DNA of 53,327 bases, the filler included, from Catajapyx aquilonaris (Eukaryota): NCBI GenBank assembly GCA_000934665.2. It is 2 parts of 2 records of this genome, joined end to end, with 100 filler letters (N's around TTAATTAATTAA, not from the genome) between each part and the next. Parts side by side here need not be neighbours in the genome. Positions count along the whole stretch, not along the records: positions 1 to 26,580 come from JYFJ02005184.1; 1 more part is not named here. One strand, given 5' to 3'. The translations under genes and the position numbers were made by a program. Shown here piece after piece: positions 8,174 to 22,200 of this stretch. The first letter of the stretch is position 1, and each line of letters begins with the position of its first letter. The notes beneath the pieces are model-generated. The model saw nothing but the letters and a program-made list of their open reading frames with translations, did no database searches and was not told the DNA's origin.

Positions 8174-8709
8174 GGGGAGGAGGAGTGGAGCTGTGGTAAT
8201 GTATGCGCCCACAGATGTAAGGATCCTGGGTTCGATACCAAGCCCGGGCATAACCACCACCACCCCTCTCTCTGCACGAGATTGGGGGGTGGGGGGGGCA
8301 CCCCCTAATCTCGTGCAGAGTTGGGTCGTCTCTGGATTCATCTCAGGTGGAACTCCTGAGACTAACCACCCAGGGGAGTTCACAAAATGTACCACTATAG
8401 ACACATTGCACTGCCCATTGCACATCCCCTCCCACTCATTCCCCCATCGCTCGCGGTATCCTGCATTATGGAAAAGGACCATCATGTATAAGCTTGTATA
8501 TACTACCGGGTTCAAACACTTTTGGCCACTTTATCCTAGCCTTGAAGCAACCTTTCACACACACACACACCTCCTTAACGTGGGGTCTGTTCGAAGGGTT
8601 GCTTCAAGACCAGGATAAAGTGCCCTAAAGTATTTGAACCCAATAGTACATCTAAAGCAAATGAAGGTACCGTGCCAGATGTCCATCAATGGGCGGTGCA
8701 CTAACCCAA
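8174..8709 (+). mobile_element. Diverged tRNA-derived SINE (family A); 3' boundary uncertain; appears to host a small MITE
   Basis: GGGGAGGAGGAGTGGAGCTGTGGT...GGTTCGATACC head. Body tcgtgcagagttggg...ggggagttcacaaaatg matches the 4375-4699 copy. Possible degenerate TSD tttggcagcatga (8159) / tttggcttcatga (8710). Confidence 0.7.
8503..8646. mobile_element. Short hairpin MITE with TA flanks (Tc1/mariner-like)
   Basis: About 52-bp imperfect TIRs ctaccgggttcaaacacttttggccactttatcctagccttgaagcaacc / rc, with TA on both sides and a (CA)n loop. Confidence 0.7.
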
Positions 8710-9174
8710 TTTGGCTTCATGATCTAGATGTGATGTTAATGCAATAAAATATTTTAATGAAGTTTCACATTTTATTTTTAATGTATTCTATATTAACATA
8801 TCTAAACATGATGCAGGACAGGTTCCCACAGTACAAACACTGGCAGGTATGAACATCTGAAACACATTTTTGGAATGATTACCCTTGAATGTGAACATTG
8901 TGGTTTGGGGTTTGGCTCAACACTGTACAACTAATTACTGTACAGGAAGGTCTACCACAGCAATACAGAGCCAAACTCAGACTATTTTATACCTTAAAAT
9001 ATCAATGATGGAAATTGAAGAAGGATCAAAGAGAATGGACACTGATTTTATCCTATGGACTATCAACTCAATATTAACATATTTATATGCATTTACTTGA
9101 AAGTTTTACACTGTCACAAATAATATAATCATATAATCTGCATTAATTTCTCCGGAGTAATCTCTTTCTAACAT

Positions 9175-9834
9175 TCAATGACTGCACATGTAACCTGCAT
9201 TCCTCTCCCTACTTACTCTTAACACTAACAATCTCTCAGCACCTGCTCTCCTTTCCATGACTACTTTGGAGTAAAAATCTTTGTTGTCCAGAATATTTCT
9301 TACATCCTCAACATCATTTTCTCTGCTGAGAAGCAAATATGCCACCCCTTCCTGTGACAACAGTTGTGGCATCCGGTCCAAAATTTTATCAATTATGAGT
9401 CTACCCTTGGGGCCACCTGCCCAAGCTGCCCGCAAGCCTGTGCCACCAACTTCATCTGCCAAGGTAGTGACATAAGGTGGATTGCAAACAAGCAAGTCCA
9501 CTTTCCCATCTAAGTGATCAAGTCCTGAAAACAAATCGGTCCTGACGCATTCCACGTTAACCTCATTTGCAATGGCAGTTGAGTAGGTCACTTTGCATGC
9601 TTCTGGGTTCATATCGACAGCCATCACAACACAGAAAGTGCCAAGAGACTTGGCCAGTGCAGTTGAGACCATTCCTGATCCACTTCCAAGTTCAATTGCT
9701 ATGGTTGGTTGGAGAGACATGATCAAAGTAAGGTCTTCTTCCAGAGCATCCAACAGAAGGAATGTATCTTCTGCTGGTTCGTAAACAGAGTTCCATACAC
9801 TTGGATCCAAGTGGGAGATATCTGGAGTTTGCAT
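9175..9834 (-). CDS. N6AMT1: HemK2/N6AMT1 (KMT9; eRF1 glutamine methyltransferase), intronless, 219 aa
   Basis: VYEPAEDTFLLLDALE, ELGSGSG motif I, NPPY motif IV, AWAGG..GR, and C-terminal ERRAGAERL, all hallmark HemK2/Mtq2 motifs. Start context CAAAAATG. Minus-strand AATAAA at 8776-8771. Confidence 0.96.
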   Translation of the reverse strand: MQTPDISHLDPSVWNSVYEPAEDTFLLLDALEEDLTLIMSLQPTIAIELGSGSGMVSTALAKSLGTFCVVMAVDMNPEACKVTYSTAIANEVNVECVRTDLFSGLDHLDGKVDLLVCNPPYVTTLADEVGGTGLRAAWAGGPKGRLIIDKILDRMPQLLSQEGVAYLLLSRENDVEDVRNILDNKDFYSKVVMERRAGAERLLVLRVSRERNAGYMCSH

Positions 9835-9879
9835 TTTTGAATCTGAGATGTAGGTTTAGATTTAGAAGTGTCTAGGGAT

Positions 9880-11251
9880 TTAAGGATGGAATGGGAGGGC
9901 AGAGGAAGCAGGGGCTGACCCAGGAGATGGTTCCAGAAGTGGGCGACGACGACCTGTCTCACGCTGGATCAACTGATGGAGCTTGTTCAGTCGCTCCTGT
10001 AGTGGAAAATCTTCCCATCATTATGGAATCCAGTAATGCATGTCACTGAACATGTAATCACTTCAAGAAGTGTATCATATTGTAGTTATCCACCACAAGA
10101 CTCATACATTTCATGCGAACTATTTAAATAGAGCAGAAACAGGATTTGCATACTGGAAAGAAAAAAAGCATTTCACTGACAATGAATTTGTAAATATTAC
10201 CATGTCATTCAGCATTCTGAAGCATGTCAGTATAAAACAAGGCGTCCCAGGGGGCCTGTATATCCCACCAGGAGCTGGTCAGGCAGTACAAAGAGGGGAC
10301 CCCCACTCTATACATAGTAGGCTACTATAGTATTTATCATCATCTAACTCTGCAATTGTGGCTGCAGGAAACAGTTTAGAAATTACTGTTGAATCTGGAT
10401 ATAACAGCCTCCAGGCTACAACAGACTCGAAATGCTGGTCCCAGCATACTCCCATATGTGGCCTGTGTATTCTGCTATAATAGACCTTCGTTATAACAGA
10501 CTGATTGGCGTGGTCCCTTGAAATCTGTTACTGCACATGGATATTGATTTATTTCTGCCCACTGCCCAAAGCATATTGAGTTTCTCAGTAATAATAATTT
10601 CATAGTGCCAGCAGAGTAAAAATCCCCACAGTGTGTCAGACTTTGATTAGGCCTCCATCACTACTTGTATCAGCTGTTGAGCAAGCCCTAAATCCTTGAA
10701 CACTAGAATCACACAAGGGCCAGGCTTTGTCATGCTCAAATACCAAAACACAGCCAATCCGTATCTACCTGTGTAGTCTGAAGAACGGTGCTGACCACAG
10801 TGACCCTCCTCCTAGCGTTGATAAGCTTTTTGACGTAATGATCCAGGTCGATGGGGCACTGCTGCTCACCTGCTATTCCCCTCAACTCCTCCGACAGAGC
10901 CTCAATCTGCTGCCTCAGCTCTACTTGACTTATCCTGCAAAAAGGTGCGGGTCCGTTATGTCCACAATGCACGAGACACAACCACAAGCTACACACATCG
11001 CATCTCAATAACATCAGCCACCGCCCAATCTATTCCTTTTCAAATAATTGTCTAATTAAGAAGCCTAATTAGCCGGGATGCCCATACTTGGTGGCCTTGA
11101 CCCTCTCGTCCAGCTGATCCAGAGTTGGCTTGAGCAACCCAACGAGCCCCTCTGCCAGCGAGTCCCTGGTTGGATTGTCCCCGTCTCCGAAGGCGAAGTC
11201 CTCTGTCTTGTCCTCCAAGGAAGTGGTGGTGCTGGCCGTGTCCACTTCCAT
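9880..11251 (-). CDS. SNAPIN: Snapin (BLOC-1 subunit 7 / BORC subunit), 148 aa; exons 11251-11088, 10934-10769, 9996-9880
   Basis: Phase-consistent splicing gives MEVDTASTTTSLEDKTEDF...NPTRDSLAEGLVGLLKPTLDQLDERVKATKISQVELRQQI...DLDHYVKKLINARRRVTVVSTVLQTTQERLNKLH, matching the Snapin family signature. Confidence 0.94.
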
Positions 11252-11819
11252 GCTCGTCGTGTCGCCTCGGGAAGGAGGCAGGCAGAGGCAGGGAGGCGCC
11301 CAACTACGCCTCAAACACTACACACCCGACTAGTCACTCGCAGCCTCAGCGGTCGCCATCATTTTTCTGCAACTAGACACTCGGGAACGGACCGATAGAC
11401 TGACTGACTGAGGAACCCTGTGAATTAAGCGGAATTAAGCAAAGGACGCCTTTAATTCAGATTAGCCATAAAACTCATCCTAATCTAATCACAGGTTGTA
11501 TGCTGCAAAATACCTAGTGAATTTCTCTCAACACAATAATGGTAGTGGACAAGGGAACGTTCCTTCAATGACAGCAAAAAAAAATTATAATAAAATAAAA
11601 GTAAAATTGTGGAGAGGACACTTGAGGTACGGCCGGGTACGGCGAAGACGTCGTCGGTGGAGGAGCAGACGGTGACATATCAGCTCCAGTTGCCTTTCCC
11701 TAAGTGCACCTGTGCAGCTGGCACTGCATCATCAGGAATCCTGGCATATTTTATGAGGCAAGGCTGCACAGTACCCCAAGCGACAAGGTGAAAGCAGGTG
11801 CTGAGACTGACTGACTGCG
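11252..11819. promoter_or_regulatory. Putative bidirectional promoter between Snapin and VAMP4
   Basis: Divergent start codons with only 568 bp between them; locally CpG-rich; ATGGCG (YY1-like) motif on the minus strand near 11355. Confidence 0.6.
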
Positions 11820-13444
11820 ATGCCACCCAAGTTTAGGCGCAACCTGTCCGACGAGGATCTGACTGGTGCACATGACACGGAGAAGGTAACAGGCAACACT
11901 AGCTGCAGTCCCAGGTGAGGCTGATTGGGCATTAACACTTATTTACTCTGGTGTCTGTCATGTTATTATAGGAAGGGCTCCTTGGTGGGGATGGGCCATC
12001 CAGAGGGGTGCCGGTGGACGATGATGAAGATGAGGATTTCTTCCTCAAAGGGCCTTCACCCAAGATCAAGTCGGTTCGTTTTGAGGAGGATGACAAGATC
12101 AAACAGTACGTATGCCAAGTAACTCTCTGTCATCACTGCTAGCCGGAAGGATGTTCAGTTAAAATGACAACTGGTGTTAAACAGCGGGCAAGTAAGCACC
12201 AAGTTACAGAGTGTCTAGAAATTCCTTTTTCCAGATGCCAAGTCATTTGGCACTTCCCTGGATAAAGTATACAGGGTGTTTATTGTAACTCTGCAAAGAC
12301 TTTCAGGGGTAATAGAGGGGACCAAGACAAGTATTTTTGACATAGGAATCTGTGTCCGGAAACGCCATCTAGAGGGGGTTCATAGACAAGGAACGGGTGC
12401 GCTCAGACGCTTCATGCGGGAGGCGCTAGGTGAGGGGACTGTTTTGTTGATAGATAGCGCTCGGATAGTAAACACCAATGTGATGTGCCATAACCTGGCA
12501 ACAGCAGAGCCATCTAACAACTAAAGTACACCTCCTAGGAGATGCGCGGATAGTCAACAGCGGTTCTGTTGTTGCCAGGTTATAGCGTATCGCGTTGTTG
12601 TTTTACTTACAATGACGCGATACGCCATAACCTGGCAACAACTGCGCGCCATCTATCAACAAAACAGTCCGCTCTCTTAGCGCCTCTCGCCTGACGCATC
12701 TGAGCGCACCCGTTCCTTGTCTATGAACCCCCTCTAGATGGCGTTTCCGGACACGGGTTCCTATGTCAAAAATACTTGTATTGGTCCCCTCTATTACCCC
12801 TGAAAGTCTTTGCAGAGTTACAATAAACACCCTGTATATCAGGCATGAGCATGGACATGACACATGAGTAAGAAAACTCAAGAGCTGTTGTTATGTTGGT
12901 TTTGTTGGATTTTGTGAACCACCAAATGTAGGCATACATGTATTTTTACTAGGTGTACGAAAACAATAAAATTACAGCCTAAAGTAACATCATAAATCAC
13001 ACCATTGCATTGCATTGGAATGAAGAAAGTCATCCCAGTGATTTTTAATGATGGAAGTGGTACAGAGAAGTGGTGTGGCCTGGGCCTCCCCCAGTGTGCT
13101 GACCAGTGTGTTTATCTCATGAACAGGGTACGAGTCCAGATCCAGGAGGTGACAGCAGTGATGCAGGACAATGTTGGCCGCCTTCTAGAGAGAGGGGATA
13201 GGCTTGAATCATTGCAGGACCGCTCAGATTCTTTGAATGAGGCCAGCTCACAGTTTAGGGCTGCTTCCATACAAGTCAGCAGGAAGATGTGGTGGAGGGA
13301 TATGCGGATGAGAATCATCCTGGGCATCGTGTTTACCATAATTCTTGTCATCATCTTCGGTAAGTTAAGAATGCCATTTCTGTTACACATGTCATTATCA
13401 TACATTGTTCGCTTTCAGTTTCAGTATACTCCCAGTATAGTTAG
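11820..13444 (+). CDS. VAMP4: Vesicle-associated membrane protein 4 (R-SNARE), about 152 aa; exons 11820-11885, 11972-12105, 13127-13359, 13419-13444
   Basis: MPPKFRRNLSDEDLTG N-terminus, dileucine EKEGLL, acidic cluster DDDEDEDFFLKGPS, synaptobrevin domain VMQDNVGRLLERGDRLESLQDRS...MWW, and a TM helix. Junction phases are consistent. The last exon (VSVYSQYS*) is less certain, with an alternative in-frame acceptor 6 nt later. AATAAA at 13645. Confidence 0.93.
12272..12834. mobile_element. Tc1/mariner-type MITE with about 190-bp near-perfect TIRs in VAMP4 intron 2
   Basis: TA|CAGGGTGTTTATTGTAACTCTGCAAAGAC ... GTCTTTGCAGAGTTACAATAAACACCCTG|TA. The mirrored ORFs 12276-12524 and 12603-12881 reflect the palindrome. 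Confidence 0.92.
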
Positions 13445-14090
13445 TTCCTGCACATTTCCTCATGGTGAAGGATGAATTAATGAACTGAATAATCATGATG
13501 AAAAAATGAGCTACTACCAAAAGAACTGCCCCGAAGTATTACTATTGGTATTCTGAAGGGAAGAAGTTGCAGCAAGTGAATATGAAAGAGAAGCATGATG
13601 TTTTTGCGCTATTTAACTATTGTAATTAAGATGTATCACTTTATAATAAAAAGCTGAAATTAACTAATTTGAAGTGTAAGTCTGCACTGATTGTCATGTA
13701 TTTTTATGCCTGCAATTCCCTGCCACCAGTCCCAGATGTTTCCCCCTCCCCTCTTTCCATTAAGGAATACCCGGTATTGAGCACCTTGAGAAGAAGCATT
13801 ATGAACAAGATTTCAACTAACAATCTGATCCATGCGGTAGTCAGTTATGGCAATGTACATACCACATGGAACTTTGTAAGCACACTTCACGCAGCCACCT
13901 CCCCCAAATGGGTTATTCTTGTGAATTCAGTTTGCACAAAATGATTTCCTCACCAAACAATGTGATAGCAAAAAGACTTAGTTATTAGTTAGTTACACTA
14001 CATGTGCACACATGCTCAACAATGATGAAGGCAAGAATATTGCTTTCCATCACATCTGAGTTACTGCAAAAATGTCTGACACTTACTTGT

Positions 14091-19200: not shown

Positions 19201-22200
19201 GATCTGTACAGAAAAGTTTGCTGGAAGAAATTTTTGCCTTGAATCCTGAACAAAGCCCTGCAAAAAGAAATAATGATCTCCAACTCTGCTAAAATTAATT
19301 CAAAATTCTTCATACCGCAATTCTTACGGCCTACCTGCTGCTCTCCTTGCATGAGTCACGTTTACCCTGAAAATTCTACCTTGTCCTACAACTTGCCCAA
19401 GAAAAACTTCATTCGTAAATGTTACTCTGACCTCAACTCGCCTGCATTTGACATTGCTTGAAACTACCCTGTAAGTAAACCAATCTTCCTGCAAGAACAA
19501 AAAATTGATCCAGCAAACTTCAGGGTGTGGAGACAAAAGTCAACAGAAAAGGATTGAAGCGCTGGGTAGCAAGGAAGGAGATGGCAGTAGTGTGCAGAGA
19601 TCATTTGGTCATAAGATAAACTAATGACCATAGCACATCACTGGCAACTAAGTGTTTTGAAGTGGGCAGAGCAGAAGGCAATCTACCCATGAGTTTGAGT
19701 TGGTCTAGACTCAGGCAAGGTCCTCTGACAGCAATCCTTTTTCATTAACTTCAAAAGACATTTATCTAACTTTCGTCAGCTTTCATGCAAGAGAGTCCTA
19801 GCTTCTATCACATTAGAGTGCACATTCCAAGACCTGACACACACCTAAATCTGTTTCCACTTCTAAGGATTGACCTGACCTTGCCCAAGCATATGACTCC
19901 ACAACTCAAAAATAGGGAAAGGGAGCAGCAAGAGGAAGTGAGGGTTGTGTGGATGGTCCTTGTTCCACCAACTCGAGGATACCAACCTGCATTGGACCTG
20001 GCAAGGGGCAGCTTAGCAGCAGGCTTCCACTTTCCAACCTGAGGATCAAACTGCTCCACAGTAGACAGCTCTGTGGTCCCATTGCTTCCTCCCACTGCAA
20101 AGACCTTCCCCTCCAGGCAGGCTATGGCGAAACGTCCTCGGGCTTCTCTCATCAGAGGTAGCTGAGACCACTTGTTCCTTCCCAGGTTGTATGATTCTGC
20201 CACTCGCAGGCACTCTGTCCTGTCATATCCTCCTGTAATATTCAAAAGAACAGGAGATAGATTTTTGCAGCCTACACATATCCACTCTTGGTAGTGAGGG
20301 TACATTGTCCCTTAAAACTAAAGGATGCTACGCACTAGCTAATTCTGTTACCCAACTCTGTGCCAGTTGCGTACAGAGTGGATATGGAAGAAAAAAACAC
20401 AATTGCATAAAAGCTCGGTGATTCCCCTAAACTACTAAAGGGAAGGGGAAAATGCACAGATGGCAATCTCTCTTCTTCCAGAGCAGTGTACTGCAAACTC
20501 AACAAACTCACCGCATACAATGAGGTCTTCCCCAAATTCGGCACATCCGACAGCACATTTTGCTGAACTCATAGGTGCCACAGGCTGGTATATCTTCTCC
20601 CTCTCCTGGCTCCCAGCACGACTGGAAGCGCTGGAGGTAGAGCTGGGGGTGGTGGAGAGGGGAGGCGCAGTGGAAGATGGGGATGGACTCTGCGAGTTGA
20701 TGCGCTGCACCACAGAGAGGGTTGAAAGCTGACCGCCAACTGTCACAAGGGCCAGAGAACTGTGCTCTGTTGGGAGATAAAATATTAAGTCACACACTTG
20801 CTTTTGAAAAGTTTAGATGGAGCACAGGAGTGAATCTAACCTGCAACACGTGTTGTAGCAATGACCTTCCAGTCATGGTCCACATCACCATCTGCCTGGT
20901 CACCAATATTGCGGGAATAAAGAAGGACCCTGGGCTTGACTGGCTGTGCAGGAGCACGCTTGCGTGGCTGAAAAAATACACAAGTTACTCAGAATAAACT
21001 TTTGATTACCAGAACTCTAGTACATAATAATCTGATAATGCCTCTCACCCAACTATCAAAATTCAACCTCTCCTCCTTGTAATACAAAGACAAAATGATA
21101 CACCCAGAATTGTAATGAACAGGCACATTCAATGAATTTACCGAATTCATAAATTCTATAAGTACTTCCAGCAAAAATTAATGCAAACACCAAATCTCCC
21201 AAAATTTGTACACACCTTGTGGTTGCTGTGGGACAACCTCTTAGACATCTTCTTATAGTCTTGCACAATCTCAGAGTCATTGAGCTCGCCATTGGGGATG
21301 TCGTTGCAATCCTGGAGGGAATTATCAAGTGCAACATAGAGCAGGTGGCTCTTTCCTATCAGCTGGTCCATGCTGATCTCCTGCCCTTCACACTGCTGCC
21401 TGTAGACCCACTCCATGACCAGCTTACATAGGGCAGCTGGATTGACCAATGCTCTCTCGTCCTTGGAACCATGCAGCACCTCCACCTGGATCCTCGGAAG
21501 AGACAGGATCCGAGGCTGGTGGGCCACCTGATCAATCTCTCGCTGTATGAATCCATCAATCTGGCCCACAAAGTCCTGCCGCCTACCAATACCAGGGAGG
21601 GAACGAACTTCCACACAGTTGGAGCAGTCTAAGTGGTCAATCAGATAGGCAGAGCAGGCCCGGGCTGCACTCTCCATCTTCAGACGGCTAGCAGCCAGGT
21701 ACACTGCTTTTACCAGATGAGGTGGGACTTGAAGCCTGAAAATAAATTGCCACAATCAGAAGAAATGTTGGGTTCCAAACTAATTAATGCTTGGAATTCT
21801 TATCATTAATAAATCTAAAGGATATCTAAAGGAATCTTAGTTACCTTGCTGTGTATGAATAGTCAACCAGCCTCTCAAAGGCCTCCCTTTCTATTCCACC
21901 ATTCAGCCTGTATGTAATGACATCTTCATGAATCTTCCCTTTGTTCTCATCATCCACTGTGAACAACTCCATTAGGTATGGTGATGCACAGGCCAGCACT
22001 GCACGGTGGGCATGGATGGCTGTCTTCCCCACCTGATATGGCATTACACAGTATTAATTGAGGGGTAATTGGGACTGGGTCTGGAGTGACAGAAAAGCTT
22101 CTCATACCTGTAAAATGACATCACAGAACTGCTTGTTCTTCCTCATCATGTCCAGTCCAGAGAGGGTCCGGGTGTAAAAGCCTTCGTCATTGAATATGAG

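What the first reader, a model, noticed from the sequence alone, without database searches (positions are those of the whole stretch)
9175..11251. Dicistronic Snapin-HemK2(N6AMT1) unit with a completely AUG-free first cistron
Seen: the Snapin stop (9882-9880) is only 45 nt from the N6AMT1 ATG (9834). The spacer has no AATAAA and no room for a promoter, and N6AMT1 is intronless. Reading the spliced mRNA, I find no AUG in any frame in the 489 nt between the two start codons, where about 7-8 are expected at uniform composition. The ORFs are in the same frame, but the spacer holds two extra TAA, which excludes a readthrough fusion. Established (from memory): Drosophila Snapin is dicistronic with the methyltransferase CG9960/HemK2, and second-cistron translation depends on absence of internal AUGs in the first. 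Inference: a deeply conserved arthropod operon-like mRNA using scanning or reinitiation, coupling a vesicle-trafficking factor to the eRF1 methyltransferase. The Snapin start context is strong (AGCATGG), so simple leaky scanning may not suffice.
Basis: partly seen in the sequence, partly recalled or inferred. Interest (0 to 1): 0.8.

Follow-up and report, generated by a model that had tools for sequence, protein, structure and literature searches.

The report
Snapin-HemK2 two-protein messenger, ATG-free first gene
An arthropod-like animal carries the Snapin and HemK2 genes on one spliced messenger RNA, with the first gene cleared of every internal start codon so that ribosomes can probably slide on to the second; this is the counterpart of a gene pair already described in fruit flies.

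Summary
On the minus strand a three-exon Snapin ORF (148 codons) ends 45 nt before an intron-free HemK2/N6AMT1 ORF (219 codons). The 489 spliced nt between the two start codons hold no ATG. That is not chance. Shuffles give P about 0.001-0.004. The two introns, the HemK2 ORF and the 3' UTR hold 4, 24, 19 and 10 ATGs, and no 489-nt genomic stretch of the window is ATG-free. One 1590-nt contig of the only public run that holds the stretch has both Snapin introns removed and runs through the spacer and all of HemK2.

Four other Snapin-HemK2 loci from environmental contigs keep 6-8 ATGs in Snapin, so the purge is specific to some lineages.

The pair is the known Drosophila snapin-HemK2 dicistronic gene (Wall et al. 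2005, seen only as cited). Its presence on one EST out to Daphnia was published in 2008 (PMC2276209). This scan also reported it in a springtail (e1-7393355).

Verdict: real, and most likely read by leaky scanning (inferred). It is a new member of a known kind, of modest interest.

The parts
11252..11301 (-). 5' leader as far as the RNA contig reaches (50 nt, GC 0.74, no ATG)
   Evidence: The contig end lies at 11301. There is no ATG in 11301-11252, and the nearest upstream ATGs, at 11362 and 11359, lie outside the contig.
11088..11251 (-). Snapin exon 1, start codon 11251-11249 in the context GAGCATGG
   Evidence: Sequence and translation. Pfam Snapin_Pallidin matches profile positions 1-25. 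No ATG after the start codon.
10935..11087 (-). Intron 1 (153 nt, GT..AG), holds 4 ATGs
   Evidence: The RNA contig skips 153 nt, with ends CT..AC on the + strand (table 5). ATG count.
10769..10934 (-). Snapin exon 2, the conserved coiled-coil core
   Evidence: Pfam PF14712, E 5e-13. 193 library proteins match at E up to 0.001. No ATG.
9997..10768 (-). Intron 2 (772 nt, GT..AG), holds 24 ATGs and one AATAAA (10553)
   Evidence: The RNA contig skips 772 nt. Counts.
9880..9996 (-). Snapin exon 3 coding part, with stop TAA at 9882-9880
   Evidence: Translation. Orthologous third exons were found in L001, L002, L005 and L008.
9835..9879 (-). 45-nt spacer: no ATG, no poly(A) signal, two more in-frame TAA; it ends in an acceptor-like CATCTCAG followed by ATTCAAAA before the ATG
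   Evidence: The fold of 146 nt around it is no more stable than shuffles, z = +0.68.
9175..9834 (-). HemK2/N6AMT1 ORF: 219 codons plus TGA, no intron, start context CAAAAATGC, GSGSG and NPPY motifs present
   Evidence: Pfam MTS. Human N6AMT1 structures match at E about 1e-48 over residues 3-208. The N-terminus MQTPDISHL is shared with a barnacle HemK2. 19 ATGs after the start codon.
8787..9174 (-). 3' UTR covered by the same contig (388 nt, 10 ATGs); ATTAAA at 8782 and AATAAA at 8776 lie just beyond the contig end

Best explanation
This is the orthologue, in an arthropod-like animal, of the Drosophila snapin-HemK2 dicistronic gene. One promoter upstream of about 11301 gives a pre-mRNA from which two Snapin introns are removed. 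The mature mRNA, about 1.6 kb in the assembled contig, carries Snapin (148 codons), a 45-nt spacer and HemK2 (219 codons). It is polyadenylated only after HemK2.

Most 40S subunits start at the Snapin AUG. A fraction scan past it, meet no other AUG in any frame for 489 nt, and start at the HemK2 AUG. That AUG sits in CAAAAUG, the arthropod optimum as I recall it. This is leaky scanning. The first cistron has been kept free of AUG both at the protein level (no Met) and at the codon level, so that bypassing ribosomes are not captured.

Shown: the two ORFs, their identity, the ATG-free stretch, and the contig that is spliced and spans both ORFs. Inferred: that both proteins are made from this mRNA, and that leaky scanning is the route.
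For: (1) Anatomy and identity of both ORFs.

(2) Contig record 4 of run X1 (1590 nt, depth 29.6) lies on 8787-9995, 10768-10933 and 11087-11301. Both Snapin introns are removed at the predicted GT..AG sites, and the contig runs unbroken through the spacer, HemK2 and the 3' UTR.

(3) No poly(A) signal lies between the Snapin start and the HemK2 stop in exonic sequence.

(4) ATG counts:
- 0 ATGs in the 489 nt, against 6.6 expected.
- P(0) is 0.001 and 0.004 in 20,000 shuffles each.
- The introns hold 4 ATGs in 153 nt and 24 in 772 nt. HemK2 holds 19 in 657 nt and the 3' UTR 10 in 388 nt.
- 0 of 52,839 genomic 489-nt windows per strand are ATG-free.

(5) Codon level:
- The four Asp/Asn/His/Tyr codons that precede a G-initial codon all end in C (0 of 4 end in T). 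In HemK2 9 of 11 end in T, in a VAMP ORF 5 of 5, and in a Kelch ORF of the same window 3 of 3. Fisher's test for 0/4 against 17/19 gives P = 0.0017.
- The Snapin protein re-encoded with HemK2's codon usage gives a mean of 3.2 ATGs and P(0) = 0.004.

(6) Orthologous loci as a natural baseline: L001, L007, L008 and L002 hold 6, 8, 7 and 7 ATGs in the Snapin CDS, with 1-2 Met each.

(7) An AUG-free whole first cistron is what leaky scanning needs. Reinitiation or an IRES does not need it.

(8) Precedent: passages citing Wall et al. [quoted passage not shown]

(9) The 146 nt around the spacer are not structured, z = +0.68.
Against: - The Snapin AUG has A at -3 and G at +4, and its leader is at least 50 nt long. 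Neither feature favours bypass, so the flow to HemK2 by simple leaky scanning could be small.
- A contig built from short reads can merge overlapping transcripts; the tool itself warns that a contig across two genes does not show a single transcript. Run X1 is not on record as RNA. I infer that it is RNA from three canonical intron-skipping joints and from introns that no contig covers.
- X1 is the only holder, so one study.
- With the protein and the gene's own codons fixed, 37% of synonymous permutations are ATG-free. Within Snapin, 0/4 at-risk codons against 6/13 codons not at risk is not significant, P = 0.24. The codon-level signal is confounded with Snapin's higher GC3: 0.66 against 0.42 in HemK2.
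- Snapins are Met-poor in general. Of 65 full-length-like library representatives, 18 have no internal Met and 22 have one.
- Four related loci keep 6-8 ATGs and yet have HemK2 5-104 nt downstream. The pair can therefore evidently work without an AUG-free first cistron.
Confidence: 0.68

Rival explanations
1. Termination-reinitiation. Ribosomes translate Snapin, stop at the TAA, and some 40S subunits stay on the mRNA, resume scanning through the 45-nt spacer and start again at the HemK2 AUG.
For: - The spacer is short (45 nt), ATG-free and unstructured.
- The Snapin start context looks strong.
- Related loci with 6-8 ATGs in Snapin have spacers of 5, 61 and 104 nt without ATG. For them this route fits better than leaky scanning.
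- Crosby et al. 2015 (PMC4528330, passage) name 'resumption of ribosomal scanning' among the options for fly dicistronic genes.
Against: - Reinitiation after a long ORF (148 codons) is generally inefficient in eukaryotes (established knowledge, recalled).
- It does not explain why all three reading frames of the whole first cistron are ATG-free here, when introns, the second cistron, the 3' UTR and orthologues are not.
Confidence: 0.14
2. HemK2 is made mainly from its own monocistronic mRNA. That mRNA would come from an internal promoter (in Snapin intron 2 or exon 3), from cleavage, or from spliced-leader trans-splicing at the acceptor-like CATCTCAG eight bases before the HemK2 ATG. The spanning RNA would then be a precursor or a by-product.
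For: - The spacer ends in a pyrimidine-rich stretch plus CAG, just upstream of the ATG.
- Contigs cannot show transcript starts, and they drop rare forms.
- In FlyBase only 45 of 159 dicistronic loci appear to be expressed exclusively from dicistronic transcripts (PMC4528330, passage).
- Some crustacean groups are reported to trans-splice (recalled, not checked here).
Against: - The spanning contig already has both introns removed, so it is a processed RNA and not a raw precursor.
- None of the six loose ends listed in table 7 lies between 8787 and 11301; two further rows were not shown.
- An independent HemK2 mRNA would remove any need for an ATG-free Snapin.
Confidence: 0.12
3. The ATG-free stretch is a by-product of a Met-poor protein family and GC-rich codon use. 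The two genes merely lie close together.
For: - 18 of 65 full-length-like Snapin representatives lack an internal Met.
- Synonymous permutation of the gene's own codons gives P(0) = 0.37, and codon-order permutation gives 0.066.
- Snapin GC3 is 0.66.
Against: - The shuffle tests give P of 0.001-0.004.
- No other ATG-free 489-nt stretch occurs in 53 kb.
- Orthologues hold 6-8 ATGs.
- The codon-choice contrast with the downstream cistron of the same mRNA is significant.
- The spliced spanning contig and the experimentally studied fly precedent also argue against it.
Confidence: 0.04
4. Internal ribosome entry just upstream of HemK2, or a Snapin-HemK2 fusion protein by stop-codon readthrough.
For: The two ORFs are in the same frame. 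Crosby et al. 2015 consider IRES use possibly common among fly dicistronic genes.
Against: Three in-frame TAA stops separate the ORFs. The 146 nt around the spacer fold no better than shuffles: z = +0.68, and 150 of 200 shuffles fold at least as well. Rfam gives no match there at E up to 0.1.
Confidence: 0.02

Closest known systems
Drosophila melanogaster snapin-HemK2 (CG9958-CG9960) dicistronic gene. Wall, Phillips & Kelly 2005, J Biol Chem 280:27670 is not held and is known here only through citing passages.
   Same: The same two proteins lie in the same order on one mRNA. The first cistron has no in-frame AUG, and the second cistron is reported to be reached by leaky scanning. The pair was already seen on a single EST out to Daphnia magna, i.e. 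across Pancrustacea (PMC2276209, Table 1).
   Different: Here the first cistron and spacer lack ATG in all three frames, whereas the fly paper's title speaks of in-frame AUGs only. The Snapin start has A at -3 and G at +4, whereas the fly Kozak-like regions are described as diverged from consensus (PMC11892635 passage). The host is a different, unplaced arthropod-like lineage: its best HemK2 hits are only about 50% identical.
Drosophila stoned (stnA/stnB) dicistronic mRNA
   Same: A long first cistron without in-frame AUG, with the second cistron read by context-dependent leaky scanning (passages).
   Different: The proteins are unrelated, and the first cistron is much longer (recalled).
Bicistronic nuclear genes of green algae (PMC11892635, passages read)
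   Same: AUG depletion before ORF 2 and leaky scanning, shown there by in vivo mutation.
   Different: Those are plants, with weak ORF 1 Kozak-like sequences as a rule. The relation is one of convergent logic, not homology.
Springtail Snapin-HemK2 unit reported earlier in this scan (e1-7393355)
   Same: The same gene pair, with the first cistron described as almost free of start codons, judged a known kind.
   Different: It lies in another genome, and I did not re-examine it.
Spliced-leader operons of nematodes and tunicates
   Same: Two unrelated genes, closely spaced, under one promoter.
   Different: Those are resolved into monocistronic mRNAs. Here a processed RNA still carries both ORFs, and no leader was seen.

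Membership tests
Snapin-HemK2 dicistronic gene of the Drosophila type | The upstream ORF is a Snapin (BLOC-1 subunit 7) orthologue | tested here: met
   PF14712 matches exon 2 (E 5e-13) and exon 1 (E 3e-4, below the curated cut-off on its own). The protein is 63% identical over 124 residues to the Snapin part of a beetle model. Intron positions are shared with L001, L002 and L007.
Snapin-HemK2 dicistronic gene of the Drosophila type | The downstream ORF is HemK2/N6AMT1 | tested here: met
   PF05175. 437 homologues were found, and the named ones are called HEMK2/N6AMT1. Human N6AMT1 structures match at E about 1e-48 over residues 3-208. The NPPY and GSGSG motifs are in the translation.
Snapin-HemK2 dicistronic gene of the Drosophila type | Both ORFs lie on one processed mRNA | tested here: met
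   One 1590-nt contig with both introns removed spans both ORFs. Caveats: it is an assembled contig, from one run, and the run's kind is not on record.
Snapin-HemK2 dicistronic gene of the Drosophila type | The first cistron has no in-frame AUG | tested here: met
   0 internal Met and 0 ATG in any frame.
Snapin-HemK2 dicistronic gene of the Drosophila type | Translation of the second cistron falls when AUGs are put into the first | not testable with these tools
   This needs reporters or ribosome profiling.
Spliced-leader trans-spliced operon | The downstream gene's mRNA carries a spliced leader joined at an acceptor in the spacer | tested here: inconclusive
   An acceptor-like CAG lies 8 nt before the ATG. 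None of the six loose ends listed lies in the unit, but two rows were not shown, and contigs drop rare forms.
IRES-driven second cistron | A structured RNA element lies upstream of the second start | tested here: not met
   z = +0.68 for 146 nt, and no Rfam match at E up to 0.1. This is a weak test, because some IRESs are unstructured.
Readthrough fusion protein | A single leaky stop lies between in-frame ORFs | tested here: not met
   There are three in-frame TAA codons.

The most novel reading that the evidence does not exclude
The Snapin-HemK2 pair is ancient in arthropods, but the way the second protein is fed has changed. Other lineages keep 6-8 AUGs with spacers as short as 5 nt, and must use reinitiation or separate transcripts. 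The pair would then be a natural series for studying how a dicistronic mRNA switches translation mechanism, with the purge arising more than once.
Probability: 0.3. Interest if true: 0.45.

Novelty: new member of a known kind. Interest (0 to 1): 0.3.

Why it matters
It adds a clean case, supported by assembled RNA, to the small set of animal mRNAs that encode two unrelated proteins, and it is an extreme one: no AUG in any frame for 489 nt. It also matters for annotation. Gene predictors either miss the second ORF or fuse the two. Four fused Snapin+methyltransferase models were found, in a beetle, a butterfly, a dragonfly and an ostracod. The contrast with related loci that keep 6-8 ATGs gives a testable comparative question about leaky scanning versus reinitiation. 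It does not open a new kind of biology, because the pair, its mechanism in flies and its conservation to Daphnia are already in print.

Tried and rejected
- RNA runs: the look-up of sequencing runs listed one holder, X1, and no holder on record as RNA. In X1 no contig covers most of intron 2, parts of intron 1 or 11382-11649. I do not use uncovered parts as evidence on expression.
- Whole genome: none is held. A second HemK2 or Snapin copy could therefore not be sought.
- Snapin exon 2 in the search for homologous proteins ('longer'): no hit. The HMMER library search replaced it.
- Synaptobrevin ORF as a taxon marker: one weak hit, a rotifer VAMP7-like protein at 40% identity. It was not informative.
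- HemK2 tree of 26 rows: the window sits with insects, barnacles and an ostracod model at 41/86 support, which is unresolved. The 26 rows were chosen by hand: 20 named hits, 2 fused models, 3 environmental loci and the window. The taxon stays 'arthropod-like, probably pancrustacean'.
- First Snapin alignment, A1 (17 rows): too diverse for the metagenome scan. A2 (6 rows) was used instead.
- Metagenome loci: of the 10 loci, L003 and L004 are identical to L002 over the 965 nt compared around Snapin exon 2. L003, L004, L006 and L010 end too early to judge. L009 has 5.8 kb downstream with no HemK2 match.
- L008 has no introns in either ORF and no poly(A) tail at its end, so I cannot tell whether it is a transcript or an intron-less gene.
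- Wall et al. 2005 itself is not held.
- Literature searches for the pair outside flies found only Hayden & Bosco 2008. I did not open that paper's supplementary files.
- A fused Snapin-HemK2 protein was considered and rejected because of three in-frame stops. An IRES was considered and rejected on the fold and Rfam results.
Full report
**What is there**

On the minus strand of 11301-8787 lies a compact two-ORF unit.
- ORF 1 starts at 11251 and has three exons: 11251-11088, 10934-10769 and 9996-9880. The introns are of the GT..AG type, 153 and 772 nt long. It encodes 148 residues and stops at TAA 9882-9880.
- A 45-nt spacer follows (9879-9835).
- ORF 2 starts at 9834 and runs without interruption for 219 codons to TGA 9177-9175.
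- The two ORFs share a frame, but two more TAA codons lie in the spacer.

**Identity of the two ORFs**

- Pfam Snapin_Pallidin matches exon 2 (E 5e-13) and exon 1 (E 3e-4). The small methyltransferase domain MTS matches ORF 2.
- ORF 2 has 437 homologues at E up to 0.001. The named ones among the 120 listed are HEMK2/N6AMT1 of animals and fungi, and the best are about 50% identical.
- ORF 2 aligns end to end with solved human N6AMT1/HEMK2 chains (E about 1e-48) and keeps the GSGSG and NPPY motifs.
- Its N-terminus MQTPDISHL is identical to that of a barnacle HemK2, which fixes the start codon.
- A 26-row HemK2 tree places the window with insects, barnacles and an ostracod model, but without support (41/86). 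Earlier notes on the same genome call it an arthropod. I leave it at 'arthropod-like, probably pancrustacean'.

**The ATG-free stretch**

The spliced sequence has no ATG in any frame in the 489 nt between the two start codons. The 50-nt leader seen in RNA has none either. Several tests bear on chance.
- Shuffles: base composition predicts 6.6 ATGs. 20,000 mononucleotide shuffles give a mean of 6.7 and P(0) = 0.001. 20,000 dinucleotide shuffles give a mean of 4.3 and P(0) = 0.004.
- Internal controls:
  - intron 1 holds 4 ATGs in 153 nt;
  - intron 2 holds 24 in 772 nt;
  - the HemK2 ORF holds 19 in 657 nt;
  - the 3' UTR holds 10 in 388 nt;
  - the three exonic pieces hold 0, 0 and 0.
- Genomic windows: none of 52,839 overlapping 489-nt windows on either strand of the 53-kb window is ATG-free, and the longest ATG-free genomic run is 405 nt.
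- A weaker result must be told too. If the protein and the gene's own codons are kept and only synonymous codons are permuted, the mean is 0.84 ATG and 37% of permutations have none. Permuting codon order gives P(0) = 0.066.
- The signal therefore lies in three things: a protein without Met; few dipeptides that can create ATG; and C-ending codons at those dipeptides.
- Codon choice at the dipeptides:
  - All four Asp/Asn/His/Tyr codons that precede a G-initial codon end in C.
  - The same class ends in T in 9 of 11 cases in HemK2, 5 of 5 in a VAMP ORF and 3 of 3 in a Kelch ORF of this window.
  - Fisher's test for 0/4 against 17/19 gives P = 0.0017, and against HemK2 alone P = 0.011.
- Re-encoding: the Snapin protein re-encoded with HemK2's codon usage gives a mean of 3.2 ATGs and P(0) = 0.004.
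- This contrast is confounded with Snapin's higher GC3 (0.66 against 0.42). Within Snapin alone the test is not significant (P = 0.24).

**RNA evidence**

- Only one public run holds the stretch. It is X1, and its kind is not on record.
- Laid on 8300-12300, its contig record 4 (1590 nt, depth 29.6) covers 8787-9995, 10768-10933 and 11087-11301. Both Snapin introns are skipped at the predicted sites, and the contig runs unbroken through the spacer, the whole HemK2 ORF and 388 nt of 3' UTR.
- A third canonical joint lies in the neighbouring plus-strand gene. I infer that X1 is cDNA-derived.
- Limits: it is an assembled contig, the tool warns that a contig across two genes does not prove one transcript, and it is one run of one study.
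- No canonical poly(A) signal lies in exonic sequence or in the spacer before the HemK2 stop. ATTAAA at 8782 and AATAAA at 8776 follow the contig end.
- The 146 nt around the spacer fold no better than shuffles (z = +0.68). Rfam finds nothing in the unit.

**Relatives**

An HMMER search of 1.84 billion representatives with Snapin exon 2 gave 193 hits at E up to 0.001.
- Among the 13 longest of the 150 listed hits that I scanned, four carry both Snapin_Pallidin and MTS domains. These are gene models of a beetle (Asbolus), an ostracod (Darwinula), a butterfly (Parnassius) and a dragonfly (Ladona).
- These look like predictor-made fusions of adjacent, co-oriented genes (alignment).

A metagenome scan with a six-row Snapin alignment gave 10 loci.
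- HemK2 lies downstream on the same strand in 5 of them (L001, L002, L005, L007, L008).
- L003 and L004 duplicate L002.
- L003, L004, L006 and L010 end too early to judge.
- L009 shows none within 5.8 kb.

Gene models built by coordinates give these figures:

| Locus | Spacer (nt) | ATGs in the Snapin CDS | Internal Met |
|---|---|---|---|
| L001 | 5 | 6 | 1 |
| L007 | 104 | 8 | 1 |
| L008 | 61 | 7 | 2 |
| L002 | 729 | 7 | 2 |
| window | 45 | 0 | 0 |

- L002 has 15 more ATGs in its long spacer.
- In L001, L007 and L008 the observed ATG count is about 0.8 of the compositional expectation.
- All four share a Met in the GLMCLLKP stretch, where the window has Val.
- The adjacency is therefore old and widespread, but the ATG purge is not. 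The window stands out from its own orthologues.
- Snapins are Met-poor in general: of 65 full-length-like representatives, 18 have no internal Met and 22 have one. A Met-free Snapin alone is weak evidence.

**Mechanism**

- An AUG-free first cistron across all frames is the signature of leaky scanning: subunits that pass the first AUG are not captured before the second.
- The second AUG sits in CAAAAUG, which matches the arthropod consensus as I recall it. The first, GAGCAUGG, matches it only in part but has A at -3 and G at +4.
- That context, and a leader of at least 50 nt, argue that bypass is not frequent. I therefore keep reinitiation as the main rival.
- Reinitiation fits the related loci that keep their ATGs. 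It does not explain the purge here, and it is generally poor after 148 codons (recalled).
- A separate HemK2 mRNA cannot be excluded from contigs. It could come from an internal promoter or from trans-splicing at the acceptor-like CAG eight bases before the ATG.
- Readthrough and an IRES are unlikely.

**Comparison with what is known**

- The fly gene is well documented. [quoted passage not shown] - The downstream ORFs of stoned and Snapin are translated by context-dependent leaky scanning, and the upstream ORFs lack in-frame Met codons (PMC2978622, passage; PMC11892635, passage).
- All of these cite Wall, Phillips & Kelly 2005, which is not held.
- Hayden & Bosco 2008 (PMC2276209, Table 1 as text) list Daphnia magna (Pancrustacea) as the most distant organism with the snapin-CG9960 association on one EST.
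- FlyBase counts 159 dicistronic pairs (PMC4528330, passage).
- This scan has already reported the same pair in a springtail (e1-7393355) and many other dicistronic units in this very genome. I did not re-test those notes.
- My five literature searches found no paper that compares the ATG content of Snapin across arthropods.

**Verdict**

The unit is a new member of a known kind. What is modestly new is the completeness of the purge and its contrast with ATG-bearing orthologues.

Noticed in passing
window 11682-13472, + strand: A VAMP-type SNARE gene lies head to head with Snapin. An X1 contig covers 11682-11883 and 11970-12106, with a GT..AG intron between them. An ORF starts at ATG 11820, and a synaptobrevin-domain ORF lies at 12996-13472 (PF00957, E 3e-27). 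Its 5' end is about 380 bp from the Snapin 5' end, so a shared bidirectional promoter is possible. From memory, the N-terminus resembles VAMP4.
   Followed up: partly
window 8523-8627: A long hairpin or inverted repeat lies just beyond the 3' end of the unit. It gives sub-threshold matches to miRNA-precursor models on both strands (33.1 bits against a gathering score of 79). One X1 contig joins 8536 to 8627 (table 5c).
   Followed up: no
L001 1045-2099: This environmental Snapin-HemK2 locus has only 5 nt between the Snapin stop and the HemK2 ATG. Its first intron is of the GC..AG type, and Snapin holds 6 ATGs. Leaky scanning cannot easily feed HemK2 there.
   Followed up: partly
L008 125-1280: A 1731-nt environmental contig carries Snapin and HemK2 without any intron, 61 nt apart, with 7 ATGs in Snapin and no poly(A) tail at its end. 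It is either an assembled transcript or an intron-less gene pair.
   Followed up: partly
proteins P0203, P0240, P0258: Snapins of three tunicates (Styela, Ciona, Clavelina) also lack internal Met. Their gene context could not be examined.
   Followed up: no
window 19811-20311, - strand: An ORF with Kelch repeats (PF01344, E 1e-19). I used it only as a codon-usage control.
   Followed up: no
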